From the UHGV virus genome UHGV-0011110: a DNA stretch of 42,827 nt; one strand, written 5' to 3'. Positions 3,854 to 38,154 of this stretch are shown piece by piece. The DNA comes from a virus. The position numbers were made by a program, and so were the translations under genes. Each line of letters opens with the position of its first letter. Position 1 is the first letter of the stretch. The notes beneath the pieces are model-generated. The model saw nothing but the letters and a program-made list of their open reading frames with translations. It was not told the origin of the DNA and searched no databases.

Positions 3854-3924
3854 ATTTACACAAATAAGGGAACATGTGCTATAATGTATTAGTAGACAAA
3901 ATTAAAATTATTGGAGGACTAAAG

Positions 3925-13706: not shown

Positions 13707-14654
13707 ATGGAAGTACAAGGTAAAACAGTAATTAATAATATGCAAATTGAGACAAGTAAAGGTACTGTTTACTGGCAAGAGAATGAACCTACTGAACCAA
13801 TAGATGGAGATACATGGTTTAAAATCATTAATGGTAAAGCGGTAAACGCTTATAATCGTGAAAACGGGGTATGGGTAGAGGTTGAGTTCTCCAGTCAAGT
13901 AATCGCTGAGGAGTTGGTGGGTAAAATCATTACTGGTGCTGAGATTAATGGTGCCACAGTCAATGGTACAACCATTAATGGTGGAGAAGTTAATGGGGGT
14001 AGATTCTTAAACCAGTACACATTTCCTGACACCAGCAGTCGCATTGATGGATTCATTGATATTAAAGATGGCGTGTTCTCTGCACGAAATGAGTATATTG
14101 ATGAACCTAGTGAGCAAACTAGACAAAATGTAGGGGTTACGATTCAAAATGGTGGGTTATTTGCAGATAATAGCGTGTATGACCCTGATGGAACACGTAC
14201 CTCATTTACAGCATCATCTATGGAAGGTGGTATATTATCACTATCCAAAATTGATGGAACAGGTACATTCAATGGGATGCTGGATGCTAAACTACTAGAA
14301 TCAATTGGAACTGTGAAGTCTAAAACAGTGAATATTCCAAACAATTCTAACTTTCAAAATGCTAGTATTATTTACTATAGATGGGGTCAATTTGTCATTG
14401 CTCGTTTTTATTTTGATCTATTAAAATCTGATGGGTACGTTGGTTTGGCTGCACATGAAAACGGTTATAGACCAATCTCATTACCTATGGCATCAGGTAT
14501 TCTACCATCAACAGCAGGGCCTAGCCGTTATTGTGTAGTATATTCTAATACCGCTGGGTGGAGATTAATTCCATCCACAGAACCTAAGGAAACACTAGGA
14601 ACTATCCAAGGTACAATTATGTACCTAACAAATGATGCTTGGCAAGATGCTTAA
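13707..14654 (+). CDS. tail fibre / receptor-binding protein
   Basis: Last structural gene before the lysis cassette. GxxINGxTVNGTTINGGEVNGG beta-helix-like repeats. Confidence 0.5.
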   Translation: MEVQGKTVINNMQIETSKGTVYWQENEPTEPIDGDTWFKIINGKAVNAYNRENGVWVEVEFSSQVIAEELVGKIITGAEINGATVNGTTINGGEVNGGRFLNQYTFPDTSSRIDGFIDIKDGVFSARNEYIDEPSEQTRQNVGVTIQNGGLFADNSVYDPDGTRTSFTASSMEGGILSLSKIDGTGTFNGMLDAKLLESIGTVKSKTVNIPNNSNFQNASIIYYRWGQFVIARFYFDLLKSDGYVGLAAHENGYRPISLPMASGILPSTAGPSRYCVVYSNTAGWRLIPSTEPKETLGTIQGTIMYLTNDAWQDA

Positions 14655-14661
14655 CACTAAA

Positions 14662-14683
14662 GTCCTCTCATGAGGGCTTTTTA
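14662..14683 (+). terminator. weak rho-independent terminator after the tail fibre gene
   Basis: Short imperfect stem (GUCCU/AGGGC) plus UUUUU. Confidence 0.4.
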
Positions 14684-14688
14684 TGTTC

Positions 14689-14760
14689 ATTTAAATGGAT
14701 AAGTACCTTATTTTAAAAATTTAAAGTGCTTAGAATGCTCGTGAGAGACACACTATTTCT
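14689..14760. repeat. R1: ~70-bp direct repeat (pair with 16480..16550); carries a pseudo 3' end of the dNK gene
   Basis: 32-bp exact core TTTAAAGTGCTTAGAATGCTCGTGAGAGACAC plus TTTAAATGGATAA shared with R2. Reverse complement reads stop-VCLSRAF-stop, like the dNK C-terminus. Confidence 0.85.
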
Positions 14761-14770
14761 CTTATATAGG

Positions 14771-14779
14771 TGCTATACT
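14771..14779 (+). promoter_or_regulatory. extended -10 promoter TGcTATACT for the lysis cassette
   Basis: TGnTATACT read directly, ~55 nt upstream of ATG 14833. Confidence 0.5.
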
Positions 14780-14832
14780 AGATATATGCCAGGGATGTGA
14801 GGTGGTAAATAATGTAAGTAAGGTGTGTTGGT

Positions 14833-15111
14833 ATGAATCTGAATGATAAAGAATTTGTTTCATTAAAAGAGCAGTTGGCACGTATTGAGGTAAAGTTAGA
14901 TGATATACCTGAAATAAAGGCTGACTTAAAAGAATATGGTAGTCGCTTAGATCGTCAATCTGAAAAATCAGATAAGGCGTACAGCATGGCTATTCGTAAC
15001 AGAGAGGAATTAGCTGACCTTAAAAACAGCTATACATGGTTAACGCGTACCACAATTGGTGCTGTAATTGCAGCCCTAGTAAGTATTGGGTTATCATTAT
15101 TTTTAGGATAG
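14833..15111 (+). CDS. XhlA-like lysis-associated membrane protein
   Basis: N-terminal coiled coil with a single C-terminal TM (TTIGAVIAALVSIGLSLFLG), directly upstream of the holin. Confidence 0.45.
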   Translation: MNLNDKEFVSLKEQLARIEVKLDDIPEIKADLKEYGSRLDRQSEKSDKAYSMAIRNREELADLKNSYTWLTRTTIGAVIAALVSIGLSLFLG

Positions 15112-15121
15112 GAGAGATAGT

Positions 15122-15403
15122 ATGAAAAATATTAACTGGAAAGTTCGTTTTAACAAAGATAATATCACATTTATCATTCGTTTTGTGGCAGCATTAATCA
15201 TCCCAGTGTTGGCATACTTAGGGTTAGAAGTGACAGATTTAACTAGTTGGAAATTAATTGGAGATGTATTGTTACAATTTATCAGCAACCCGTTCCTACT
15301 TGGTTTAACAGTAATTAACGCATTGAATATGATCCCTGACCCAACCACTAAAGGTATTACAGATAGCGAGAAAGCACTTAACTATACAGAACCAAAGAAA
15401 TAG
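15122..15403 (+). CDS. holin, phage phiLC3 (Phage_holin_1) family
   Basis: Two TM segments and C-terminal ..NALNMIPDPTTKGITDSEKALNYTEP.. signature. Confidence 0.7.
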   Translation: MKNINWKVRFNKDNITFIIRFVAALIIPVLAYLGLEVTDLTSWKLIGDVLLQFISNPFLLGLTVINALNMIPDPTTKGITDSEKALNYTEPKK

Positions 15404-15418
15404 AAAGGAAGTTTTATA

Positions 15419-16447
15419 ATGGTAGAAATTATTAACAAAACAGTAACACGTGGAGTGGCTGGACGCAGAGGCGGAGCAGTTAAAGGGGTGGTATTTCATA
15501 ACACATGGGGTAATTCTACAGCCAAGCAAGAAGCCAGTCGTTTATCAGCAATGAACAACAATCAATTAGCAGCTGGTTTTGCGCATTACTATATTGACAA
15601 AAACACAATCTGGCGTACAGAAGACACTTATAATGGAGCATGGCATACTGCTAACTCTGATGGGAACATGAACTATATTGGATATGAAGTATGTGGTAAC
15701 GACCAAACACCACTAAAAGACTTCTTACAAGCGGAAGAAAACACCTTCTGGCAAATTGCACAGGATTTGAGATACTATGGTTTACCAGTTAATCGTAACA
15801 CAGTACGTTTACATCCAGAGTTCTCAGCAACTCAATGTCCTAAGCGTTCATTAATTGTTCACACTGGTTTCAATTCAACACAGGCTCAACCTGCTCATGT
15901 AATCAACGCTATGAAGGATTATGTGATTAAAAACGTTCTTAAGTATTACAATAACCCTAGTTTGAAGCCAGATGGCAAAGCACCATCTACAAATGGACAA
16001 ACACCTCCAAGTGGCGCAAATGTAACACCATCTAACCCGTCGCAACATGATAGGGCAGTAGCAGCTTCCCCAGCGATCACAGTTGATGGATACACAGCTA
16101 AAGAAGATTTCTTTAACACTATTGCTGGAAATAAACTACGCGCCGCTGGCTGGATGTTACCTACAAAAGGTGGCAAAGCATTCAACTATGGTTATGTGTT
16201 CATCATGGATTACAACACTGGCAAAGAATTAGCACGTCAAATGAGCAAAGGTATTGCTAGACCTGACGTAACCAAAGCATACAATGTTAAGGGTGGTAAT
16301 GCGTATGGTTTAGACTGTACGTTTGATCTTAAACACTTCAAAGGTAAAAAAGTTTATGTAATGTTCCGTAGAACCAATGATAAATCTGGTAATACCAAGG
16401 GTGGTAATAAAGACATTCACTTAAAAGGTATTTACATGAATTTATAA
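15419..16447 (+). CDS. endolysin: N-acetylmuramoyl-L-alanine amidase (Amidase_2/PGRP) with C-terminal cell-wall-binding domain
   Basis: VFHNTWG.., GYEVCG.., HPEFSATQCPKRS Zn-ligand pattern. Sits after the holin. No CHAP domain. Confidence 0.8.
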   Translation: MVEIINKTVTRGVAGRRGGAVKGVVFHNTWGNSTAKQEASRLSAMNNNQLAAGFAHYYIDKNTIWRTEDTYNGAWHTANSDGNMNYIGYEVCGNDQTPLKDFLQAEENTFWQIAQDLRYYGLPVNRNTVRLHPEFSATQCPKRSLIVHTGFNSTQAQPAHVINAMKDYVIKNVLKYYNNPSLKPDGKAPSTNGQTPPSGANVTPSNPSQHDRAVAASPAITVDGYTAKEDFFNTIAGNKLRAAGWMLPTKGGKAFNYGYVFIMDYNTGKELARQMSKGIARPDVTKAYNVKGGNAYGLDCTFDLKHFKGKKVYVMFRRTNDKSGNTKGGNKDIHLKGIYMNL

Positions 16448-16450
16448 AAA

Positions 16451-16483
16451 GAACCCTCAAATGAGGGTTCTTTATTTGTTTTT
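16451..16483. terminator. bidirectional rho-independent terminator between convergent endolysin and dNK genes
   Basis: GAACCCTCA/TGAGGGTTC perfect stem followed by a T-run. Confidence 0.75.
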
Positions 16484-16550
16484 AAATGGATAATCACCTT
16501 AATTCAATTATTTAAAGTGCTTAGAATGCTCGTGAGAGACACGCTTTTTG
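16480..16550. repeat. R2: second copy of the ~70-bp direct repeat; overlaps the genuine dNK 3' end
   Basis: See R1. Confidence 0.85.
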
Positions 16551-17216
16551 AGAGAAATAGGTGTATTCTTCACCACTAATTGCTCCCACATTGAACAATT
16601 CATCTAGTATCATTATTAGTACTTTCATGCGATGTTCTGGGTTATTAACATAGTCAAGTTCTGTTACATCTATGATTAACTTAGGAAAGCCTAAATCTTT
16701 ATTCATCCACTCTTGATAGTTAGCATGATGGTTTCTAAAGTATTCATATAATTCAGTACCTTTTTCAACTTTCTCAAAATCTCGTGCGCGGTTATTAATA
16801 CGTTTAATCTCTTCTTCAAAGCTACAATTTAAAACAATCATCAAATCAGGTGATTTCTTTGGTAGTGGTTCTAGTTCTTTCAACATGCGATTTAATAGTT
16901 TTGTATAGACCTCCAATTCTAACTCGTTCACAGAGCCTTCATCATATAACTGCTTTAAAAAGATTGAATCTTCATATATTGAACGATCAAGAATGCCATT
17001 TTTAACACTCATAGCCTCCTGAATAAGTTCAAAGCGCTTGGACAACATGTCAATTTGAAATAGAAAACCATACGTTTTCTTGTCTGCATAGAATTTCTCC
17101 AGTAGAGGATTATCCTCTACTGGTTCATAAACTGCTTTCGTTTCTAGTAATTCGCTTAATAAATGTGTCATTGATGATTTACCTACCCCAATTGGTCCTG
17201 CCAATGTAATCAACAC
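16521..17216 (-). CDS. deoxynucleoside kinase (dAK/dGK/dCK family)
   Basis: P-loop GPIGVGKSS, VYEPVEDNPLLEKFY, LDRSIYEDSIF (DRS motif). Confidence 0.85.
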   Translation of the reverse strand: MLITLAGPIGVGKSSMTHLLSELLETKAVYEPVEDNPLLEKFYADKKTYGFLFQIDMLSKRFELIQEAMSVKNGILDRSIYEDSIFLKQLYDEGSVNELELEVYTKLLNRMLKELEPLPKKSPDLMIVLNCSFEEEIKRINNRARDFEKVEKGTELYEYFRNHHANYQEWMNKDLGFPKLIIDVTELDYVNNPEHRMKVLIMILDELFNVGAISGEEYTYFSQKACLSRAF

Positions 17217-17228
17217 TAATCTTCCTCC

Positions 17229-17479: not shown

Positions 17480-17508
17480 AGTATAACACCTCCGTTACGA
17501 GGTGTCAA
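17480..17508 (-). promoter_or_regulatory. early promoter: TTGACA-17-TGtTATACT plus conserved leader
   Basis: Perfect -35, 17-bp spacer, extended -10. Leader TAATTCATAAGTTAAGAGGAGG shared with the other copies. Confidence 0.7.
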
Positions 17509-17978
17509 GTGTTTATATTTAATATTCTGAATCTTTTATTCTCACCACCCAGTTTATTTAGATTATTAAAGTATGCTGTATTTAGATTGAAAAACTGTGT
17601 CGCTTCAACGAGTGATTTAAATTCATATTCTTTATTCGTTGATTTATCAATCATAGTAATTGTAACTCTATGGTACTCCTTATTAATTGACTGCTCTAAT
17701 GTCGTAGCCCATCTTAAATTTTCAACACTATTGTCTATTCTATTACGATTAATATGATCAACAGTGGGTTTGTTATATGGATTAGCTATAAAAGCTTCTG
17801 CTACTAGACGGTGGACTTTCATGTTTTGATTTTTACTTCCGATGTGTACCATATGGTATCCGTAGGCATCCATACGATTTTTTAATGTCCTATGACGAGT
17901 AATGTTTCGTACCATACCTAGTGTTGATATGTTGTATTTATCACCATATGAATTAGTATACGGTAATATTTTAGTCAA
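17505..17978 (-). CDS. NUMOD4/HNH_3 homing endonuclease overlapping the polymerase 3' end
   Basis: HRLVAEAFI.NP.NKP.VDHINRNR.DN...NLRW.T motif. N-terminus aligns with the other HNH genes from TTG 17978, 3 nt before the polB stop. Confidence 0.65.
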   Translation of the reverse strand: MTKILPYTNSYGDKYNISTLGMVRNITRHRTLKNRMDAYGYHMVHIGSKNQNMKVHRLVAEAFIANPYNKPTVDHINRNRIDNSVENLRWATTLEQSINKEYHRVTITMIDKSTNKEYEFKSLVEATQFFNLNTAYFNNLNKLGGENKRFRILNINT

Positions 17979-20262
17979 TATAATTCTTGACTTCTGGGAA
18001 TGTATATCCAAGTTTTTTAAATTTACTATGAGCCTCCTCAAGTCTAACCCTCCATTCTGTACCTAGCCACAGGATCAGTAGATCTTCCACCTGATTGATA
18101 TAGTATTCTTTATCAATATCATCTAAAGTAATCCAACCTTCACCAATTGCCTCATTATCAATGGCATAATATTCAGGAGCATTAGCTAAACCTTTAGTAT
18201 ACGAATCATTACCAACGATAGTTGTACCTTCCTCTTCAATAACAGCTCCACGTTTTACTTTGAATATTTCAACCGCTTTTTTAGGGTCTTTTACTGCAAA
18301 CACACGATTTACTTTTTGTGCTTTCGTTTCATTACCATTCATATCACGTACTACAGTATCATCAAATGTGTATCCTGTCTTAGTAACCATTTGGAATTGG
18401 CGTAGTTCATCACACTCATTTATAAACTCTCTATAGTCTTTACCAGCAACTACATAATTAATGAACGCATTTGAAACAATTGCTTTAGAAACTTTCAATC
18501 CATTCGTTAGACCAATAGCACCTTTAAACTTCACGTTACCATTTGCTGTAACTGCCAAGTAATTATTTACGTCCTTCTGGAAAATAGCTTTAAATGGATC
18601 ATCATCTAAGGTGTACCCTGTCCGTTTCATCCAATCATTTGCAATCTCATCAATGGCTTTTTCATCTTCTTCACTAAATGGAATATAGTAGTGCGCGTCT
18701 GTGTTTGATTGAATAATAGTAGCATGGTCTTCAATCTTTTCTAGTAAATCCCACATTGCCATCTGCCCAGTAATACATACTAATAACCTCATACGTGGGT
18801 CATACAGTTTATTAAACTCAGCTCCCATTGCACCATATTTAGTGTTTAGAGGTAGTTTATAGCCATTAATCAATAACTTAGTTGGAATCTGAACACCTTT
18901 AATTTCAGTAAATTCTTTTTTAGAATACTTGGCTTCCATACGTTCATCTAATAACATTTGATAGATATGACGTTTGTCTTCTGGGATGTTTCTTGACAAG
19001 TAGTCAAATAGCACCATGGTATTAGGGTAAAGTGAGCCTACGTCACGTGCATGGAAGTTACCTACATGAATAAATGATTCCTTAGCTCCATGTATACCAC
19101 CTACCCCTAAAACCTCTGTCACGTCTCTACGTGGCACATCTAATGAAATACTGGCATGTCCTTTATCATTAGCTTCAAATTCATCTGTCATAAATGCCTC
19201 ACGTATGGTCTCTGACTCAATTTCAAACCCTTCTGGTAGTTCATACTTATCTAACTCGTCACCTCTATCAGGTGTCTTCTCAGCTCCTAATAATTCAGCA
19301 GTCAAGTTTGCGTTAGTCATTGACAGTGCCATTTTGTCTAAACCAAAGTATAAGGCAATCGCTGCCTTAGCTACTAACATGCCTATGTTTTGTTCAAAAC
19401 GTTTTTCAGTAGCTAATACATCATTTTTACAGTATAGTTCATTCAGTAATTGCTCTTCTTCTGTTAATTCTCTATCTAAATCAAAGTCTACCTCAGTTTC
19501 TTTAATGTTGATGCCTAAGAATGCACTATGCTCTTTCAAGCTGAATCCTCTATTGTCTTGATATAAATCCATTCCAAACAGTGGTGTTTTCTTAGTATCA
19601 AACATTTTATATACTAACGCTCTGTCATCACTTTCAATGATTGCTTTTGACACATGAAATGGGTTTTTGCCTTGTAAATAAGCACGCATGACATTTGAGT
19701 CATATGAATGTGAGTTATAACCTACAAACAACGAATCTCTATTCGCTAGATAGAACTTGCGTAAAGCGTCCAAATCATTATGAATGACTGTCCATTCTTT
19801 GGTGAAGTAATCTCTGAAAACAAATAAATTGTCTTTTTTAAATACTTCAATGTCATAAATATATATTGTTTGTTTTGTTAGTGCCTCATTCGGTTTCTCA
19901 GGCAATACGTCAATTACTGCTCCTCTTTGATTAATAGTTACATTTGGGAAACCATTGCTGTATTTTAGAGTAATCATCAACTGCTGTCCAACTTCTATCT
20001 TTTCCCACGTTTTCCAATCTTGCTTACGAAATTTCATAATATAAAATGTAGCGTCACGTCCATCATTTGTGCTACGTACTTTAATTTCTTTCATCTCTTT
20101 GCCTTTAGCAGATAAACGTTCCTCAGCTTTAATCACTACAACTTGATGAATCCCTTCAATCATTGGGTCAAAGCTCTTTCCGTTGCCTGCTAATGCAGAA
20201 AATATTTCTAATAGTTTAGATGCTAACTTTTCAGCACCTTGAAATTCTGCTATGTTTTTCAT
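17971..20262 (-). CDS. family B DNA polymerase with 3'-5' exonuclease
   Basis: Exo I DIE, Exo III YCKNDVLAT, motif A DVGSLYPNTM, motif B KLPLNTKYG, motif C-like SNTDA. Confidence 0.85.
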   Translation of the reverse strand: MKNIAEFQGAEKLASKLLEIFSALAGNGKSFDPMIEGIHQVVVIKAEERLSAKGKEMKEIKVRSTNDGRDATFYIMKFRKQDWKTWEKIEVGQQLMITLKYSNGFPNVTINQRGAVIDVLPEKPNEALTKQTIYIYDIEVFKKDNLFVFRDYFTKEWTVIHNDLDALRKFYLANRDSLFVGYNSHSYDSNVMRAYLQGKNPFHVSKAIIESDDRALVYKMFDTKKTPLFGMDLYQDNRGFSLKEHSAFLGINIKETEVDFDLDRELTEEEQLLNELYCKNDVLATEKRFEQNIGMLVAKAAIALYFGLDKMALSMTNANLTAELLGAEKTPDRGDELDKYELPEGFEIESETIREAFMTDEFEANDKGHASISLDVPRRDVTEVLGVGGIHGAKESFIHVGNFHARDVGSLYPNTMVLFDYLSRNIPEDKRHIYQMLLDERMEAKYSKKEFTEIKGVQIPTKLLINGYKLPLNTKYGAMGAEFNKLYDPRMRLLVCITGQMAMWDLLEKIEDHATIIQSNTDAHYYIPFSEEDEKAIDEIANDWMKRTGYTLDDDPFKAIFQKDVNNYLAVTANGNVKFKGAIGLTNGLKVSKAIVSNAFINYVVAGKDYREFINECDELRQFQMVTKTGYTFDDTVVRDMNGNETKAQKVNRVFAVKDPKKAVEIFKVKRGAVIEEEGTTIVGNDSYTKGLANAPEYYAIDNEAIGEGWITLDDIDKEYYINQVEDLLILWLGTEWRVRLEEAHSKFKKLGYTFPEVKNYID

Positions 20263-24290: not shown

Positions 24291-24764
24291 TTATACTAAT
24301 TTATTTCTATCTGCGTATGACGCTCCTTCAAGTTCCCAGAGTTCTCTACCAAGCTTATTAGCGGTAAGATAATCCTTTTTATCGCAAGCATTATTAATCT
24401 TAATAATAAGCTCATGTCGTTTAGGTTCAACACGTTTGCGTGCAGGGCGTGAAACACGTTCTTGTGATTCTTTTGGATTGATTGCATACCCAAGGTTAGT
24501 CCAGTGATTGTTTTGCACGTTACCATCCTTATAATACACATAGCTGCAATTATGTGGGTTGTATACAAACATTTCAGCAACCAGTGGGGCTATATAAAAC
24601 TTACGTGACTTTCTATGTGATCCATTTAGTACTACAAATTGTTTACCTGTCTTGTAGTCAATCTCTTCTGTTACATATTTACCTGAGTCAATATCCATAA
24701 CATGTCCTTCATTTGTAATAGAGTACTTATCATATGGTGGTGAAAGTTGTTCAAATTTAAGCAT
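24291..24764 (-). CDS. NUMOD4-containing HNH-like protein (degenerate HNH; first His replaced)
   Basis: N-terminal YxIxNxGxV pattern; APLVAEMFV.NP..., NNHWTNL. Confidence 0.45.
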   Translation of the reverse strand: MLKFEQLSPPYDKYSITNEGHVMDIDSGKYVTEEIDYKTGKQFVVLNGSHRKSRKFYIAPLVAEMFVYNPHNCSYVYYKDGNVQNNHWTNLGYAINPKESQERVSRPARKRVEPKRHELIIKINNACDKKDYLTANKLGRELWELEGASYADRNKLV

Positions 24765-25542: not shown

Positions 25543-26052
25543 TTAGTCCTCCTTATATTTAAAAGTATATCCTCCAACATGGTTACGTCTACCTTTAAGT
25601 AATTCACAAATTCCACCTGTTGATAATCCTAACAATCGTCCTGCTTCAGATAGACTACTATACGTATTGCCATTTGAACATATTATAGGTTTACTACGTG
25701 ACGTTTTACTTCTTTTAATACCTGTACCATGTTGTATATTATCAATATGTGATACCCATTCCAAATTGTTTATAGAATTATTAGCTTTGTTTTCATCAAT
25801 ATGGTTAACATCACTTAAATTTAGTTCATTATTTATGAAGTGTTTTGCCACTAATCGATGAACCCTGTAACATTTTCTTCCTCTTGAATTAACAACATTA
25901 ATATAATAATATCCACTAGTTTTATTCTTAAATGGTTTTAAAAGTCTATTTGTTTTAATATTTTTTATCCTACCTAAACTGCTCACTTGATAATTTGGGA
26001 AATCCTTAATCGTCCGCCATTCTTCGCAACTCGCGTTTTCTAACTGATTCAT
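25543..26052 (-). CDS. NUMOD4/HNH_3 homing endonuclease
   Basis: HRLVAKHFI.N......VNHIDENKANNSINNLEWVS. Confidence 0.75.
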   Translation of the reverse strand: MNQLENASCEEWRTIKDFPNYQVSSLGRIKNIKTNRLLKPFKNKTSGYYYINVVNSRGRKCYRVHRLVAKHFINNELNLSDVNHIDENKANNSINNLEWVSHIDNIQHGTGIKRSKTSRSKPIICSNGNTYSSLSEAGRLLGLSTGGICELLKGRRNHVGGYTFKYKED

Positions 26053-27004: not shown

Positions 27005-28301
27005 CACTTTCAATCATTTCATTTGTAAAGTCTTTTCCATTTGTAACTGTGTTAAAGATCTTTTTCTCAATTGGTGTATCTGGGACAATATGATAATACA
27101 GTGGCGTTTTCTCTTGTCCATGTCTATCAGTGCGCCCCTTTGCTTGTAAATACTCTGTAGAGCTTAAAGGCATTGAATTGAATACTGTCACATTACTAAT
27201 CACAAAATCGTTTATACCTGTTGAGGCTGACTTATATTGGGCTAGGACTACCCCATTTTCATTTTGTTTGAATGGTCTCAAATCTTTAACAGCACCATTG
27301 TACGTACCATATGGACGTTTCAGTTTGTCTAATAGTCTACCCAACATTAGTCCTTCCCACTTGTAGTTATAGAAGATTACTACACGCTCATTGTTATGTG
27401 TCTCAAGAATAGCTTCTAAGCGTTCAAAGGGTTCTTTGGATACTTGTTTATTGATTCCATATAGAAAACCATGACTAACTTGTCTTAATGAGTTAAAAAG
27501 TTTAGAACTGTTATCCAATTCAATCGTTTCTGGATTAAATGGCGCTGTTTCTGCTTCATAAATTCTATTCTTTTTCAGCTTGTTGTACATTGCTGGCTTC
27601 TTAGTTTTATAAACGTAATCTTGTGGTAAATAGCCTTTGTCACGCTTGTAGTTCACACTTGCTTCATTTATCATTTGCTGTAACAGGTGCTCATTCTGAT
27701 AGCCCACAATATCCATAAAACGCATTGACCCCATCTGTCTCAGTTGTTTTATCACAAATAGTTGTTCAAACTCTTTCTTAGGCTTTCTAAAGACATTTGC
27801 AATGTATAGTTGTGAATACCAATTCTCCAGTTTTCCATTGCTCACAGGGGTAGCTGTGCATAAATACGTATGTTTTGCTCTCTTAGATAGCTGCATAACA
27901 AACTTAGTTACTTTAGACTTGGATACACCAACTTTGTGAGATTCATCAATAATAATAAACGTGTCTTTGTCTACCCATTTCAATAACTCAGTCAAGCGCC
28001 ATGAGCTTTCAAAACTGATTGCAACATTCTCTGCTGTTTCTAACAGCTCTTTGTTTTTCTTTGTGCCTTTGTTGAGCGCTGTAATGTCAATATCAAACAC
28101 ATGTCCATCTTCCACAAAGTCTAACACTTTAGGTGCTAGACAGATCACTAATAACTTATTACACTTACTTTTCACATATGAACCAATACTCATGTAAGAT
28201 TTTCCAGTTCCAACGTCTGATAGGTTTAAAGGTTTAGTCTCAAAGTTTTCAATGGCTTCTTTCTGATACATGAAAAGTTCTATATTATTCTGCATATTCA
28301 A
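26988..28301 (-). CDS. SF2 helicase (SNF2/DEAD-like)
   Basis: Walker A DVGTGKS, DESH box, motif VI QAKGRTDRHGQ. Confidence 0.8.
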   Translation of the reverse strand: MNMQNNIELFMYQKEAIENFETKPLNLSDVGTGKSYMSIGSYVKSKCNKLLVICLAPKVLDFVEDGHVFDIDITALNKGTKKNKELLETAENVAISFESSWRLTELLKWVDKDTFIIIDESHKVGVSKSKVTKFVMQLSKRAKHTYLCTATPVSNGKLENWYSQLYIANVFRKPKKEFEQLFVIKQLRQMGSMRFMDIVGYQNEHLLQQMINEASVNYKRDKGYLPQDYVYKTKKPAMYNKLKKNRIYEAETAPFNPETIELDNSSKLFNSLRQVSHGFLYGINKQVSKEPFERLEAILETHNNERVVIFYNYKWEGLMLGRLLDKLKRPYGTYNGAVKDLRPFKQNENGVVLAQYKSASTGINDFVISNVTVFNSMPLSSTEYLQAKGRTDRHGQEKTPLYYHIVPDTPIEKKIFNTVTNGKDFTNEMIESVDKYS

Positions 28302-28755
28302 AAATCAATCCTTTTATAGTTTTTCTTCTCTTTGTTAGAACAGAAGATATTGATTGAGGTATTAAATTTAAATCTTTTGCTGCGCTTTTTACACTGTCAT
28401 AGTGTTTACCTGTATTTTTACATATAATTCTCTTTGAATATGACAACCCCCTAGTTCCATAATTGATGTTATATTCATTGGTACACCATTCTAAGTTTTC
28501 AACAATATTATTTCTTTTGTTTTCATCAATATGATTGACTTGTGCGTAATTGTTTGGGTTATCAATAAAAGTTGTAGCTACTATTCTATGCACTAATGTT
28601 TTTGTTACATTTCCATTTTTACACAGACTTACCGCCTCATATCCTCTACCTACAATATTGTGTTTCAATATTCTTCCGTTTCTCATAACTCTTCCTAAGT
28701 TACTCACTTGATATAATCCTTCATAATCTTTAATATCTTTCCAAATTTCTTTCAT
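28285..28755 (-). CDS. NUMOD4/HNH_3 homing endonuclease
   Basis: MKEIWKDIKDYEGLYQVSNLGRV; HRIVATTFI.NP...VNHIDENKRNN.ENLEW. Confidence 0.75.
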   Translation of the reverse strand: MKEIWKDIKDYEGLYQVSNLGRVMRNGRILKHNIVGRGYEAVSLCKNGNVTKTLVHRIVATTFIDNPNNYAQVNHIDENKRNNIVENLEWCTNEYNINYGTRGLSYSKRIICKNTGKHYDSVKSAAKDLNLIPQSISSVLTKRRKTIKGLIFEYAE

Positions 28756-36656: not shown

Positions 36657-37049
36657 ATGCCACAAAGGATATGTGCTGAACCAACATGTCGTAATAAAGT
36701 AGAGTTACCAGAACGATACTGTGAACAACACAGAGGACATAATGATAAGCAGTACAACAAACATGTAAGAACGAATGACTTCAATAAGAAGTATAATGAC
36801 TTCTATCATAGTACTCAATGGACTAAGACTCGTAAGACTAAGCTAATGGAGCAACCTCTATGCGAGGTATGTGCTAGGCAAGGACGTATGACTAAGGCAG
36901 ACATGGTTCACCATATTATTGAATTAAGAAGTCCAAACGGATGGAAACATAGATTAGATATGAATAATTTAGAATCAATCTGTTACAGTTGCCATAATAA
37001 AGAGGAGCATAGATACAGTTGGAAAAATGGTGGTAGGGAACAGCGTTAA
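36657..37049 (+). CDS. terminase-associated HNH endonuclease (zinc-ribbon plus HNH; HK97 gp74-like role)
   Basis: CxxC..CxxH N-terminal ribbon; HHIIELRSPNGW...NLESICYSCHNKEEH HNH core. Sits upstream of the P27 TerS. Confidence 0.7.
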   Translation: MPQRICAEPTCRNKVELPERYCEQHRGHNDKQYNKHVRTNDFNKKYNDFYHSTQWTKTRKTKLMEQPLCEVCARQGRMTKADMVHHIIELRSPNGWKHRLDMNNLESICYSCHNKEEHRYSWKNGGREQR

Positions 37050-37584: not shown

Positions 37585-37647
37585 ATTTTAGTTGACAACC
37601 TCCTTTATTTGTGCTATTATATTAGTATAAAGAAGGAGGAATTATTT

Positions 37648-38154
37648 ATGAAAGAAATTTGGAAAGAATTAGACGATTTACCAAACTATGAAATCAGTAA
37701 CATGGGTAGGTTGAGAAATAAAAATACATTGAGAATTTTAAAAACAAGAATTTCAAAACTTGGCTATGAGCAAATAACAATCACGTATGGCGGCGAAAAA
37801 TATTTCAGAACAATACACAGGCTTGTAGCTAAAGCATTCTTAATTAACCCAAATAACAAACCTGAGGTTAATCACATTGACGAAAATAAACTTAATAACC
37901 GTGTTAGCAATTTAGAGTGGGTGACTAGAAAAGAAAATTTAAATCACGGCACTTGGAAGCTTAAAAAGAGACAATCGCGAGATAAGGCCATTTATGCTTA
38001 CAAAGACGGTGAAGTACTTGAGTTCCCTTCAACTAAAAGTTGCGCTCAAACACTTGGGTTGATTCCAACAAATGTTACTCAAGCTATTCGTGTAAAGAAT
38101 AAAAACGGAAGTAGTAAAACACTAAAAGGCTACACATTCAAATACAAGGAGTGA
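37648..38154 (+). CDS. NUMOD4/HNH_3 homing endonuclease
   Basis: MKEIWKELDDLPNYEISNMGRL; HRLVAKAFLINPNNKPEVNHIDENKLNN..NLEWVT. Confidence 0.75.
   Translation: MKEIWKELDDLPNYEISNMGRLRNKNTLRILKTRISKLGYEQITITYGGEKYFRTIHRLVAKAFLINPNNKPEVNHIDENKLNNRVSNLEWVTRKENLNHGTWKLKKRQSRDKAIYAYKDGEVLEFPSTKSCAQTLGLIPTNVTQAIRVKNKNGSSKTLKGYTFKYKE

What the first reader, a model, noticed from the sequence alone, without database searches (positions are those of the whole stretch)
14689..16550. Lysis cassette bracketed by ~70-bp direct repeats that duplicate the 3' end of the dNK gene
Two segments, 14689..14760 and 16480..16550, share a 32-bp exact core (TTTAAAGTGCTTAGAATGCTCGTGAGAGACAC) plus TTTAAATGGATAA. Copy R2 is the genuine 3' end of the leftward deoxynucleoside-kinase gene (encoding ..KACLSRAF-stop) and its 3' UTR up to the bidirectional terminator. 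Copy R1 sits after the tail-fibre terminator. Its reverse complement still reads VCLSRAF-stop preceded by an in-frame stop, so it is a dead remnant of the same gene end.

The ~1.8 kb between the repeats holds exactly the lysis module: its own TGcTATACT promoter, the XhlA-like gene, the holin, the amidase and the terminator. This is the footprint of a cassette acquired or exchanged by recombination at this sequence. Direct repeats of this length also allow excision of the module. It marks a mosaic joint and identifies the lysis genes as the most recently exchanged unit.
Basis: seen in the sequence. Interest (0 to 1): 0.7.

Follow-up and report, generated by a model that had tools for sequence, protein, structure and literature searches.

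The report
Conserved boundary repeats flanking phage lysis genes
The two ~100-base direct repeats around the lysis genes are real, but they are an old, conserved, unannotated boundary element found in about a hundred Enterococcus phage genomes, not a leftover of the kinase gene or the scar of a recent insertion.

Summary
The repeat is confirmed. R1 (14664-14772) and R2 (16455-16563) are 80% identical over 109 nt, with a 32-bp exact core and a 13-bp exact box, and no chance matches are expected.

- The same unit (terminator hairpin, T-tract, box, 17-nt spacer, core) sits upstream of xhlA in all 19 relatives chosen without reference to the motif. These include Efquatrovirus phages, which have no kinase gene.
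- R1 aligns without a single gap from -87 to the conserved TGnTATAmT extended -10. Between the two phage groups its core is 78% identical, against 57% for xhlA itself.
- R2 abuts four different leftward gene families and is read in two frames or left non-coding.
- The kinase residues encoded by R2 lie beyond the point where all other kinase homologues stop aligning. The kinase therefore runs into the repeat, and R1 is not derived from the kinase.
- The window does have a mosaic joint at the R2 hairpin. What was exchanged there is the early accessory region, not the lysis module.

Best reading: a PeSL-like composite terminator/promoter-upstream boundary element. R1 is the upstream part of the lysis promoter, and R2 is a promoter-less, dispensable paralogue. 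Patches of sequence have been exchanged between the copies. The biochemical function is untested.

The parts
14659..14680 (+). Rho-independent terminator hairpin after the tail-fibre gene (13707-14654). Its 3' half and T-tract are already part of repeat R1.
   Evidence: Terminator scan. Every relative has a hairpin at the same place, with varying stem sequences.
14664..14772 (+). Repeat copy R1: hairpin 3' half, T-tract, box, 17-nt spacer, core and about 21 nt more.
   Evidence: the repeat finder family D1; alignment. Present in 12 of 12 genomes of the window's group and 7 of 7 Efquatrovirus genomes. Gap-free alignment from -87 to -7.
14690..14702 (+). Box TTTAAATGGATAA in R1. In this lineage it is of the R2 type, which points to a conversion patch.
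   Evidence: Window, DELF1 and 268 carry the R2-type box and spacer (ACCTT) in R1. Most relatives have the ACCCA type.
14720..14751 (+). 32-bp exact core of R1. CTTAGAAT lies at about -57 to -50 and CACACTATTTC at about -37 to -27 relative to the inferred transcription start.
   Evidence: The core region is 78% identical between the two phage groups, against 57% for xhlA.
14771..14779 (+). Extended -10 element TGCTATACT of the lysis-operon promoter. The transcription start is inferred near 14786. There is no canonical -35.
   Evidence: TGnTATA(A/C)T is invariant in all 17 R1 copies aligned from genomes chosen without reference to the motif. It is also present in the 9184 copy printed in the same call. 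Promoter activity has not been tested.
14833..16447 (+). Lysis cassette: xhlA (14833-15111), holin (15122-15403), amidase endolysin (15419-16447).
   Evidence: ORFs; Pfam XhlA; annotations of relatives. Internal mosaic breakpoints near 15190-15310, 15420 and 16040-16070.
16448..16473 (+). Terminator hairpin after the amidase gene, flanked by A- and T-runs (bidirectional in form). In this window its stem is of the type that relatives carry at R1 (CCCTC/GAGGG).
16433..16480 (.). Mosaic joint. To the left the window resembles DELF1/EhiS_268; to the right it resembles BUCT630/IME-EFm5.
   Evidence: Similarity profile in 40-nt steps.
16455..16563 (+). Repeat copy R2: the same unit without a -10 element. 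On the minus strand it is the 3' UTR and last codons of the kinase gene.
   Evidence: The core is present in 9 of 12 genomes of the window's group and next to NrdH in all 7 Efquatrovirus genomes examined. It is absent from DELF1 and 268, and EF36P1 keeps only the box.
16481..16493 (+). Box TTTAAATGGATAA in R2.
16511..16542 (+). 32-bp exact core of R2. On the minus strand it holds the kinase stop codon (16521-16523) and the codons for CLSRAF.
16521..17216 (-). Deoxynucleoside kinase gene (231 aa). The last 11-17 residues (about 16524-16574) are not homologous to other kinases, and the last 7 are encoded by the R2 core.
   Evidence: Pfam dNK domain covers residues 3-202. tblastn shows homologues outside the group aligning only to residue 214-219. 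BLASTP to the 267-aa and 250-aa kinases ends at 220 and 217.

Best explanation
R1 and R2 are two ancient paralogous copies of a composite intergenic boundary element. Each consists of a terminator hairpin, a T-tract, a box, a fixed 17-nt spacer and a core. The pair brackets the lysis cassette in two related groups of virulent Enterococcus siphophages: the window's group (IME-EFm1/EFm5, DELF1 and others) and Efquatrovirus.

**R1** is the working copy. It lies between the tail-operon terminator and a conserved extended -10 (TGnTATAmT, with no usable -35). It most likely forms the upstream recognition or regulatory region of the lysis-operon promoter. This is an inference from sequence conservation at the DNA level, not the RNA level.

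**R2** carries the same element up to about position -25 and lacks the -10. It lies between the endolysin terminator and whichever gene happens to end the leftward early operon. That end of the operon is a hypervariable accessory region (NrdH, kinase, PnuC-like transporter, alpha-amylase-like gene, HNH endonuclease, methylases). ORFs there repeatedly run into R2 and terminate in it. In this window, the kinase's last codons and its stop codon are R2 sequence.

Both copies are islands of conservation next to fast-changing modules: the receptor-binding tail fibre to the left of R1 and the accessory genes to the right of R2. They therefore act as homology anchors at which co-infecting phages recombine. 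Patches of sequence are also occasionally copied from one repeat to the other. Such a patch, together with an R1-type hairpin at R2, is why this window has an unusually long and exact repeat.

- **Shown:** distribution, conservation, gap-free architecture, mosaic joints, independence from coding.
- **Inferred:** promoter or regulator function of R1, and the recombination-anchor role.
For: - **Universality of R1.** It is upstream of xhlA in 12 of 12 genomes of the window's group and 7 of 7 Efquatrovirus genomes. These genomes were picked by whole-region BLAST, not by the motif.
- **Prevalence.** The 81-nt unit matches 99 phage records at 140 places. All are Enterococcus phages, and most matches fall outside any annotated feature.
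- **Not host-derived.** A scan of 185,579 genomes gave only 7 hits, none of them in an Enterococcus genome.
- **Rigid architecture.** Seventeen R1 copies anchored on the -10 align with no gap from -87 to -7. CTTAGAAT, CAC.C.ATTTC and TGnTATAmT are invariant or nearly so. The 5' UTR downstream carries indels.
- **Island of conservation.** Identity between the two groups is 0.78 for the R1 core, 0.66 for the left part, 0.61 for the 5' UTR and 0.57 for xhlA coding sequence. Shuffled controls give about 0.5.
- **Not RNA structure.** The consensus fold has 0 predicted pairs on the plus strand of R1 and about 0 kcal/mol on the minus strand of R2. Rfam gave nothing.
- **Independent of coding.**
  - The core encodes ..ACLSRAF-stop of the kinase here and ..EEHSKHF.. 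of an extended NrdH in 785CS.
  - It is non-coding after NrdH, after a PnuC-like gene (L021), after an alpha-amylase-family gene (LG62) and in IME-EFm1.
- **Kinase tail.** Homologues outside the group align only to residue 214-220 of 231.
- **Mosaic joints.** These fall at R2 in the window and at R1 in many pairwise matches (query starts 359-429 and 334-336).
- **Patch exchange.** R1 of window/DELF1/268 and of five Efquatrovirus loci carries the R2-type box and spacer. R1b_E versus R2_E is 0.86, against 0.69 versus R1a_E. LG62 R2 carries the R1-type right flank ACACTATTT. R1 and R2 of phage 9184 share derived changes.
- **Analogy.** PeSL composite promoter/terminator cassettes of T4-like phages mediate modular shuffling (PMC2839356, PMC4122927). 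The window's late operon contains at least six other terminator + TGnTATAAT couples.
Against: - **No experimental data.** The promoter, any bound factor and recombination at R are all inferred.
- **No candidate regulator.** None was recognised among the window's proteins by Pfam or PHROGs.
- **R2 is dispensable.** It is absent from DELF1 and 268 and truncated in EF36P1, so a function that needs both copies is unlikely. Yet R2 is about as conserved between the groups as R1, and a purely passive copy does not explain that well.
- **No general concerted evolution.** Within each group, R1 and R2 of the same genome are not more alike than R1 and R2 of different genomes (permutation p = 0.98 and 0.49). 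Exchange between copies is sporadic, not continuous.
- **Ascertainment.** Part of the sample came from exact-motif scans and is biased towards conserved cores. The conservation claims here rest on the BLAST-selected genomes.
- **Other breakpoints.** Joints also occur inside the cassette, so R1 and R2 are not the only ones.
- **Origin unresolved.** Whether R1 gave rise to R2, the reverse, or both came from an insertion event cannot be decided.
Confidence: 0.6

Rival explanations
1. R1 is a decaying copy of the 3' end of the kinase gene, left when the lysis cassette was recently acquired or swapped by recombination at that sequence.
For: R1 and R2 share 109 nt, and R2 overlaps the kinase stop codon. 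The reverse complement of R1 still reads ..VCLSRAF-stop. There is a mosaic joint at R2.
Against: - R1 exists in Efquatrovirus, which has no kinase gene at this site.
- R1 is more conserved than xhlA and aligns gap-free with the -10.
- The kinase residues concerned are a lineage-specific tail beyond the conserved domain.
- The cassette is collinear with the tail fibre of DELF1/268, so it was not the unit exchanged.
Confidence: 0.03
2. An ancient insertion footprint. The ancestor had one R copy at the convergent junction of late and early operons. A circular or linear DNA carrying R plus the lysis cassette integrated there by homologous (Campbell-type, PeSL mini-circle-like) recombination and left R on both sides. 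R1 was later co-opted as promoter-upstream sequence. This concerns origin only and is compatible with the best explanation.
For: - The direct orientation and ~100-nt length fit homologous integration, not transposase target duplication.
- The unit includes the hairpin and T-tract in both copies.
- On the minus strand the box looks like a relic ribosome-binding site (AAGGTGAT). In 785CS and KEN14 it actually serves the start of an HNH endonuclease gene.
- PeSL mini-circles are a precedent (PMC2839356).
- Single copies of the element occur in unrelated 59-kb and 72-kb Enterococcus phages.
Against: No empty site (single R with no cassette between tail and early genes) was seen in 19 examined genomes or in the motif-scan loci. 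The event would predate the split of the two groups, so no direct trace can be expected. Tandem duplication followed by loss explains the pattern equally well.
Confidence: 0.3
3. A functional pair. Both copies bind the same phage or host DNA-binding protein. The two sites insulate or loop out the 1.8-kb lysis cassette, or block read-through from the tail operon and from the early operon, so as to time lysis.
For: - Both copies are conserved between groups at the level of primary sequence, without RNA structure.
- The box-to-core spacing is fixed at 30 nt (about three helical turns) in both copies.
- GTGCTTAGAATGCTC is conserved in R2 of both groups and in two unrelated phages.
Against: R2 is missing in viable phages (DELF1, 268, EF36P1). 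In 785CS and KEN14 an HNH gene separates it from the terminator. No regulator was identified. There are only two sites per genome.
Confidence: 0.15
4. Antisense RNA control. The 3' UTR of the early operon (minus strand of R2) pairs with read-through late transcripts that contain R1 (plus strand). The pairing triggers processing or blocks premature lysis-gene expression.
For: The minus strand of R2 is necessarily transcribed as the 3' UTR of the early operon and ends at a terminator, which is the form of a 3'-UTR small RNA. There are weak, sub-threshold Rfam sRNA hits on the minus strand at 16437-16543. Complementarity to R1 is 32 nt exact in this window.
Against: - The R1 core lies upstream of the -10, so promoter-derived lysis mRNA would not contain it.
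- In many genomes R1 and R2 differ at several positions, and phages without R2 are viable.
- There is no conserved structure.
Confidence: 0.05
5. Endonuclease or recombination hotspot. The conserved core is the recognition site of one of the many free-standing I-HmuI-like HNH homing endonucleases. Its conservation and the adjacent breakpoints result from cleavage and co-conversion during co-infection.
For: - The window encodes at least four NUMOD4/HNH_3 endonucleases.
- An HNH gene sits directly against R2 in 785CS and KEN14 and about 200 nt from the element in the 72-kb phage L030.
- The element is mosaic around GCTTAGAATGCTC. L030 has the core right half of the window's group, and EG103P2 has the Efquatrovirus-type right half.
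Against: The site is retained in genomes that carry the adjacent endonuclease gene, whereas homing sites are normally disrupted or immune there. This model gives no reason for the rigid spacing of R1 to the -10. Nothing links any particular endonuclease to the site.
Confidence: 0.08

Closest known systems
PeSL (promoter-early stem-loop) composite promoter/terminator cassettes of T4-like phages (Arbiol et al. 2010, PMC2839356; Comeau et al. 2014, PMC4122927)
   Same: - A short intergenic unit that combines a terminator stem-loop with promoter sequences.
- Repeated within one genome.
- Located at the borders of hyperplastic regions, here the tail fibre and the accessory early genes.
- Coincides with insertion, deletion and replacement joints between related phages.
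- Direct repeats around a gene block could in principle yield mini-circles.
   Different: - Only two copies per genome, against about 50.
- Siphophages of a Gram-positive host.
- About 85 nt of conserved non-promoter sequence lies between the T-tract and the -10.
- One copy (R2) has no -10 at all.
- The bracketed block is the essential lysis cassette, not ORFans.
- Neither promoter activity nor circles have been demonstrated.
Boundary or linker sequences at module junctions of lambdoid phages (from my own knowledge of the lambdoid mosaicism literature; not checked here)
   Same: Short conserved non-coding stretches between functional modules, at which homologous recombination between otherwise dissimilar phages appears to occur.
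   Different: Those sequences are not usually duplicated in direct orientation around one module. They are not tied to a terminator plus promoter architecture.
Promoter-coupled terminators in bacteria (Fletcher et al. 2026, bioRxiv 10.64898/2026.08.19.745784)
   Same: A terminator and the next promoter are arranged as one unit. The window's late operon has several hairpin/T-tract/TGnTATAAT couples, and R1 is a stretched version of one.
   Different: In coupled units the termination and initiation signals overlap. In R1 they are about 90 nt apart, with a separately conserved insert between them.
Repeated cis-elements of other phages: intergenic repeats of halovirus HF2 that carry promoters (PMC8707807, seen only as a title and abstract), and mycobacteriophage stoperators and start-associated sequences (from my own knowledge)
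   Same: Conserved non-coding repeats in phage genomes with a transcriptional role, recognised first by comparative genomics.
   Different: Those occur in many copies spread across the genome. Stoperators are 13-17 bp repressor sites in temperate phages. The present unit is about 100 nt, has two copies and occurs in virulent phages.

Membership tests
PeSL-type composite promoter/terminator cassette | Stem-loop terminator and a sigma-70-type promoter combined in one short intergenic unit | tested here: inconclusive
   R1 has a terminator-like hairpin and an invariant extended -10, but no canonical -35 and a gap of about 90 nt between them. R2 has the hairpin but no -10. Activity is untested.
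PeSL-type composite promoter/terminator cassette | Many sequence-related copies per genome, concentrated in hyperplastic regions | tested here: not met
   There are exactly two copies in the window and at most two places per record. The other terminator + TGnTATAAT couples in the window do not share the box or core.
PeSL-type composite promoter/terminator cassette | Copies coincide with indel or replacement joints between related genomes | tested here: met
   There is a joint at the R2 hairpin in the window. BLAST matches start at R1. Four different gene families abut R2.
PeSL-type composite promoter/terminator cassette | Recombination between nearby copies yields mini-circles | not testable with these tools
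   This needs outward-facing PCR or long reads on phage or infected-cell DNA.
Pseudogene fragment (remnant of the deoxynucleoside kinase 3' end) | The fragment is homologous to a conserved part of the parent gene family | tested here: not met
   The Pfam dNK domain ends near residue 202. Homologues outside the group stop aligning at 214-220 of 231. The repeat covers only the tail beyond that point.
Pseudogene fragment (remnant of the deoxynucleoside kinase 3' end) | Found only in lineages that have or had the gene, and decaying neutrally | tested here: not met
   R1 is present in Efquatrovirus, which has no kinase gene at this site. The R1 core is 78% identical between groups, against 57% for xhlA, with no indels.
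Insertion footprint (target duplication or Campbell-type integration) | Relatives exist with an empty site, that is, a single repeat copy and no cassette | tested here: not met
   None was found among 19 BLAST-selected genomes or the loci from motif scans. Genomes without the R2 core (DELF1, 268, EF36P1) still contain the cassette.
Structured cis-regulatory RNA or small RNA | Match to a curated family, or a conserved secondary structure with compensatory changes | tested here: not met
   There were no Rfam hits near gathering scores. RNAalifold gave 0 pairs for R1 on the plus strand and about 0 kcal/mol for R2 on the minus strand.
Operator or activator binding site of a phage regulator | Specific binding by a protein, with an effect on the adjacent promoter | not testable with these tools
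   Only indirect support exists: sequence-level conservation with fixed spacing to the -10. No regulator was recognised.

The most novel reading that the evidence does not exclude
The ~60-100-nt unit is a dedicated cis-acting DNA element shared by several unrelated Enterococcus phage lineages, with a function of its own at both positions. Candidate functions are the binding site of an unrecognised regulator that gates the lysis cassette from both sides, or a programmed recombination or endonuclease site that keeps modules exchangeable. On this reading the duplication around the lysis genes is selected, not historical.
Probability: 0.2. Interest if true: 0.7.

Novelty: new variant of a known kind. 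Interest (0 to 1): 0.5.

Why it matters
- **A comparative result on phage regulatory DNA.** A non-coding unit turns out to be better conserved than the lysis proteins it precedes, across about a hundred Enterococcus phage genomes, many of them therapy candidates. In almost all of those records it is unannotated.
- **A testable lysis promoter.** If R1 is the control region of the lysis operon, it gives a defined target for studying how these virulent phages time lysis. They have no recognisable late regulator.
- **Natural homology arms.** If the repeats serve as recombination anchors, they explain why receptor-binding and accessory modules are so freely reassorted in this group. They would also provide ready homology arms for engineering host range or lysis cassettes.
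- **De novo C-termini.** ORFs acquire new C-terminal tails by running into a conserved non-coding element. Examples are the kinase tail here and the extended NrdH of 785CS.
- **A caution for interpretation.** Direct repeats around a module are not necessarily the scar of a recent insertion.

Tried and rejected
- **Rfam.** Scans of the region and of the L030 intergenic region gave only sub-threshold, terminator-driven hits.
- **Consensus RNA folding.** No structure was found for the R2 minus strand or the R1 plus strand. An apparent GAGAGA/TCTCTT versus GGTGA/TCACC covariation seen by eye in R1 was not picked up, and it is imperfect in most genomes.
- **Host origin.** A scan of 185,579 bacterial and archaeal genomes for the 17-mer gave 7 hits, none in Enterococcus.
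- **Third or degenerate copies in the window.** None was found, including at the start of the late operon.
- **Canonical sigma-A -35.** I also compared by eye with SigH, ECF, sigma-54 and SPO1-late-type motifs. Nothing fitted in both phage groups. The nearest -35-like hexamer (GACACA) is 21 nt from the -10. The promoter scan did not list R1 or R2.
- **Concerted evolution within a genome.** The permutation test was not significant within either group. Only sporadic patches were seen.
- **Homology to the right of the core.** Gapped alignment against shuffles was not significant. Only the in-register 12-13 of 21 matches suggest an extension to about 14772/16563.
- **A small ORF in the unit.** Mini-ORFs exist on either strand, but they are not conserved between copies or genomes (read from the sequences).
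- **A candidate regulator.** None was recognised among 30 early-region proteins by Pfam or PHROGs.
- **Literature.** Searches for a description of this element in Enterococcus phage papers found nothing relevant.
- **Assembly chimera at R2.** Considered, but neither parent type supplies the window's hairpin sequence. It cannot be excluded without the reads.


Full report

Yes. The repeat finder returns a single long direct-repeat family in the region: 14664-14772 and 16455-16563, 109 nt, 80% identical, 1791 nt apart.

- The pairwise alignment and a pattern scan confirm the 32-bp exact core (14720-14751 = 16511-16542).
- They also confirm the 13-bp exact box TTTAAATGGATAA (14690-14702 = 16481-16493).
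- The 23-mer CTTAGAATGCTCGTGAGAGACAC, with up to three mismatches, occurs only at these two sites in the 42.8-kb window. It occurs in none of 100 shuffles.
- Looser searches find no third copy.

- Terminator-like hairpins lie at 14659-14680 and 16448-16473, and TGCTATACT is at 14771-14779.
- The genes between the repeats are xhlA (Pfam XhlA), a 93-aa holin-like ORF and a 342-aa amidase (annotations of relatives).
- A leftward deoxynucleoside kinase gene (16521-17216; Pfam dNK) has its stop codon and last seven codons inside the R2 core.
- The reverse complement of R1 reads ..YSTYIREIVCLSRAF-stop after an in-frame stop.

**2. What the window is**

The region matches only Enterococcus siphophages of about 40-44 kb: DELF1, EhiS_268, IME-EFm1, IME-EFm5, BUCT630, 9184, Aramis and the KEN phages. 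Identity is 78-91%.

- Structural and lysis genes are on the plus strand.
- A long leftward early/replication operon (PolB, Prim-Pol, helicase, NrdH, kinase) converges on them at R2.

**3. The repeats in relatives**

I fetched 11 relatives chosen by whole-region BLAST, not by the motif.

*R1.* The intergenic sequence upstream of xhlA contains R1 in all 12 genomes, the window included. The order is hairpin, T-tract, box, spacer, core, then TGnTATA(A/C)T.

*R2.* The R2 core is present downstream of the endolysin terminator in 9 of the 12. It is there whether or not a kinase gene follows.

- IME-EFm1, KEN21 and KEN18 lack the kinase but keep R2 plus about 40 nt of the kinase 3' end.
- In LG62 the core lies 1 nt from the stop codon of an alpha-amylase-family gene (Pfam, E = 6.5e-72).
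- EF36P1 keeps only the box.
- DELF1 and 268 have no R2.

*Motif scans.* Scans of IMG/VR added about 25 contigs of the same group. In some of them R2 follows a PnuC-like NMN transporter gene, which itself follows a full-length 267-aa kinase.

*A second group.* A second scan and BLAST (108 records) showed that a second group, Efquatrovirus, has the same arrangement.

- R1 lies upstream of its xhlA-like gene.
- R2 lies between the endolysin terminator and an NrdH-like gene.
- There is no kinase gene at this site.
- In 785CS and KEN14 an HNH endonuclease gene has been inserted between the terminator and R2. R2 stays attached to NrdH, whose ORF then reads through the core in another frame (..EEHSKHF..).

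*Overall prevalence.* An 81-nt query covering R2 matches 99 phage records at 140 places. All are Enterococcus phages, and most matches fall outside any annotated feature.

*Single copies elsewhere.* Single copies also occur in large non-coding regions of a 72-kb phage contig (L030) and of the 59-kb phage EG103P2.

*Not host-derived.* The motif is not in Enterococcus chromosomes. A scan of one genome per species gave only 7 hits, none in Enterococcus.

**4. Which way did the sequence go, kinase to R1 or R to kinase?**

- Every kinase homologue outside the group aligns only to residue 214-219 of the window's 231-aa protein. This covers Enterococcus myophages, 72-kb and 86-kb phages, and Lactococcus KSY1.
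- BLASTP to the 267-aa kinase of L021 ends at residue 220, and to the 250-aa kinase of L030 at residue 217.
- The Pfam domain ends near residue 202.

The residues encoded by the core (ACLSRAF) and the few before them are therefore a lineage-specific tail. R1 also exists, with the same right-hand continuation (CACAC.ATTTC.C), in Efquatrovirus, where no kinase is present.

The parsimonious reading is that a kinase ORF, probably after loss of its own 3' end and of the PnuC-like gene, now runs into pre-existing R2 sequence and stops there. R1 is not a relic of the kinase.

**5. Is the element constrained?**

- *Gap-free architecture.* Seventeen R1 copies from both groups, anchored on the -10 hexamer, align without one gap from -87 to -7. 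CTTAGAAT (about -57 to -50), CAC.C.ATTTC (about -37 to -27) and TGnTATAmT are invariant or nearly so. The 5' UTR that follows has indels.
- *Island of conservation.* Identity between the groups is 0.78 for the core region, 0.71 around the -10, 0.66 for the box and spacer, 0.61 for the 5' UTR and only 0.57 for the first 240 nt of xhlA. Shuffled controls give 0.47-0.54. The element is an island that is more conserved than the gene it precedes.
- *Within the window's group.* Here the R1 core is about as conserved as xhlA and the holin gene, and more so than the amidase.
- *Not RNA.* Consensus folding predicts nothing on either strand, and Rfam finds nothing. The constraint is on primary sequence, which points to DNA recognition.
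- *Not coding.* The core is read in two frames in two different genes and is non-coding elsewhere. Protein coding does not explain its conservation.

**6. Relationship between the two copies**

- In the box-and-spacer segment, most R1 copies of both groups carry ..ACCCA.., and nearly all R2 copies of both groups carry ..ACCTT... This suggests that the duplication predates the split of the groups.
- A minority of R1 copies carry the R2-type segment. They are window, DELF1 and 268, plus five Efquatrovirus loci. For these, R1b_E versus R2_E is 0.86, against 0.69 versus R1a_E.
- Other chimeras exist:
  - R1 of L017, L020 and L034 has the R2-type GTG just before the core.
  - R2 of LG62 continues with the R1-type ACACTATTT.
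  - R1 and R2 of 9184 share TTTGGATG.. and GAGGT.
  - The window's R2 hairpin (CCCTC/GAGGG) is of the kind that relatives carry at R1.
- A permutation test shows no general excess similarity of R1 and R2 from the same genome within either group (p = 0.98 and 0.49). Exchange between copies is therefore episodic.

The window belongs to a lineage in which such patches have made the two copies unusually alike. Its within-genome identity is 0.85, the highest of the 27 genomes.

**7. Mosaic joints**

A similarity profile of the window against 11 relatives, in 40-nt steps, gives this picture.

- DELF1/268-like sequence runs from the tail fibre through R1, xhlA and the holin gene.
- The amidase catalytic half resembles many relatives.
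- The cell-wall-binding half is DELF1/268-like up to the step starting at 16433.
- BUCT630/IME-EFm5-like sequence runs from the step starting at 16473 onward.

The joint lies in the R2 hairpin. Many BLAST alignments to relatives with different tail fibres begin at R1 (query 359-429, query 334-336). R1 and R2 are thus real recombination boundaries. The variable partners, however, are the receptor-binding tail fibre on the left and the accessory end of the early operon on the right (NrdH, kinase, PnuC, amylase, HNH, methylases, Mom-like). The lysis cassette as a whole is not one of the variable partners, although it has internal breakpoints of its own.

**8. Mechanism proposed**

The late operon of the window is punctuated by hairpin/T-tract/TGnTATAAT couples at 3877, 4509, 9053, 12258, 38838 and 42633. 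These are composite terminator-promoter units of the kind called PeSLs in T4-like phages. There they sit at the edges of hyperplastic regions and mediate modular shuffling by homologous recombination (PMC2839356, PMC4122927).

R1 is such a couple with about 85 nt of separately conserved sequence between the T-tract and the -10. R2 is the same unit cut off at about -25.

My reading has four parts.

- (a) R1 is the upstream region of an extended -10 lysis promoter, most likely a recognition site for a factor that sets its timing. This is inferred.
- (b) R2 is a promoter-less paralogue in the 3' UTR of the early operon. It is dispensable.
- (c) Both copies serve as conserved homology anchors next to fast-evolving modules.
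- (d) ORFs at the variable operon end repeatedly terminate in R2.

No regulator could be recognised. R2 is more conserved across groups than a passive copy should be. A function for R2 (second binding site, roadblock, endonuclease or recombination site) therefore remains open, and I give it about 0.2.

**9. Origin**

Two routes would both leave direct repeats: Campbell-type integration of a circle carrying R plus the cassette into a single R site, or tandem duplication followed by loss. No empty site was found, and the event would predate the split of the two groups. The origin cannot be resolved here.

It would apply to an ancient event, with the kinase playing no part.

**10. Verdict**

- **Observation:** confirmed.
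- **Interpretation:** partly supported. The mosaic joints are real. The kinase-remnant and recent-cassette claims are refuted.
- **Novelty:** a new variant of a known kind, namely a PeSL-like boundary repeat in siphophages of a Gram-positive host, with two copies around the lysis genes. It is apparently undescribed and almost entirely unannotated.
- **Interest:** moderate (0.5).

**Caveats**

- There is no experimental evidence.
- Part of the sequence sample was collected by exact-motif scans. The conservation claims rest on the BLAST-selected genomes.
- The provenance of the window is unknown, so an assembly chimera at R2 cannot be formally excluded.

Noticed in passing
window 16571-16581 and 17210-17220 (also L007, L009, L010): The kinase gene carries an 11-bp near-repeat, TCACCACTAAT near its 3' end and TCAACACTAAT at its start codon and ribosome-binding site. 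The kinase-less relatives IME-EFm1, KEN21 and KEN18 have exactly the junction expected from a deletion between these two. They keep the kinase ribosome-binding site fused to the last ~40 nt of the gene plus R2. KEN21 and KEN18 annotate the remnant as a 39-aa hypothetical protein.
   Followed up: partly
window 17505-18041, 25543-26052, 28285-28755 (all minus strand), 37609-38154 (plus strand); also 24291-24764 and 36657-37049: There are at least four free-standing NUMOD4/HNH_3 (I-HmuI-like) homing endonuclease genes, a further HNH-like ORF, and an HNH gene upstream of the small terminase gene. This is an unusually high endonuclease load for a 43-kb phage and probably contributes to its mosaicism.
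   Followed up: partly
window 3877, 4509, 9053, 12258, 38838, 42633 (plus strand): Intergenic gaps of the structural operon repeatedly hold a terminator hairpin whose T-tract runs directly into TGnTATAAT. Several other promoters show wACACA-N17-TGnTATAAT. The late region appears to be broken into many terminator-promoter couples.
   Followed up: no
window 15420-16070 and 16070-16440: The endolysin is itself a two-part mosaic. The catalytic half groups with 9184, IME-EFm5 and BUCT630, and is unrelated (20-50% identity) to that of EhiS_268, Aramis, KEN18 and LG62. The cell-wall-binding half groups only with DELF1 and EhiS_268. There is also a variable segment inside the holin gene at about 15190-15310.
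   Followed up: partly
L021 471-2015; L011 6828-8027; L061 2911-3510: The accessory genes at the variable end of the early operon differ between relatives. Examples are a 267-aa kinase plus a PnuC-like NMN transporter (L021), a 399-aa alpha-amylase-family protein (LG62) and a Mom-like DNA modification protein (TwoStep).
   Followed up: partly
L064 2842-3111 (785CS) and the equivalent region of L066 (KEN14): Where an HNH gene has been inserted next to R2, the NrdH ORF is 11 codons longer. It reads through the R2 core and ends at the HNH ribosome-binding site. The HNH start uses the box region, whose minus strand (AAGGTGGGTAAT..ATG) looks like a Shine-Dalgarno sequence.
   Followed up: partly
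L030 4400-4900 and L043 3500-4280: Single copies of the box and core lie in ~800-nt AT-rich non-coding regions of a 72-kb phage contig and of the 59-kb phage EG103P2. These regions also contain their own direct repeats, such as GATGTTTTAAGTGA...AAAAATCCCGGG twice in EG103P2. In L030 the core is followed after 17 nt by GGTGCTATATAGG, which resembles the R1 -10 region. The role of these regions is unknown.
   Followed up: partly
window 13929-13996: There are four tandem 15-nt units in the tail-fibre gene, encoding a repeated five-residue motif (..INGAT VNGTT INGGE VNGG..).
   Followed up: no
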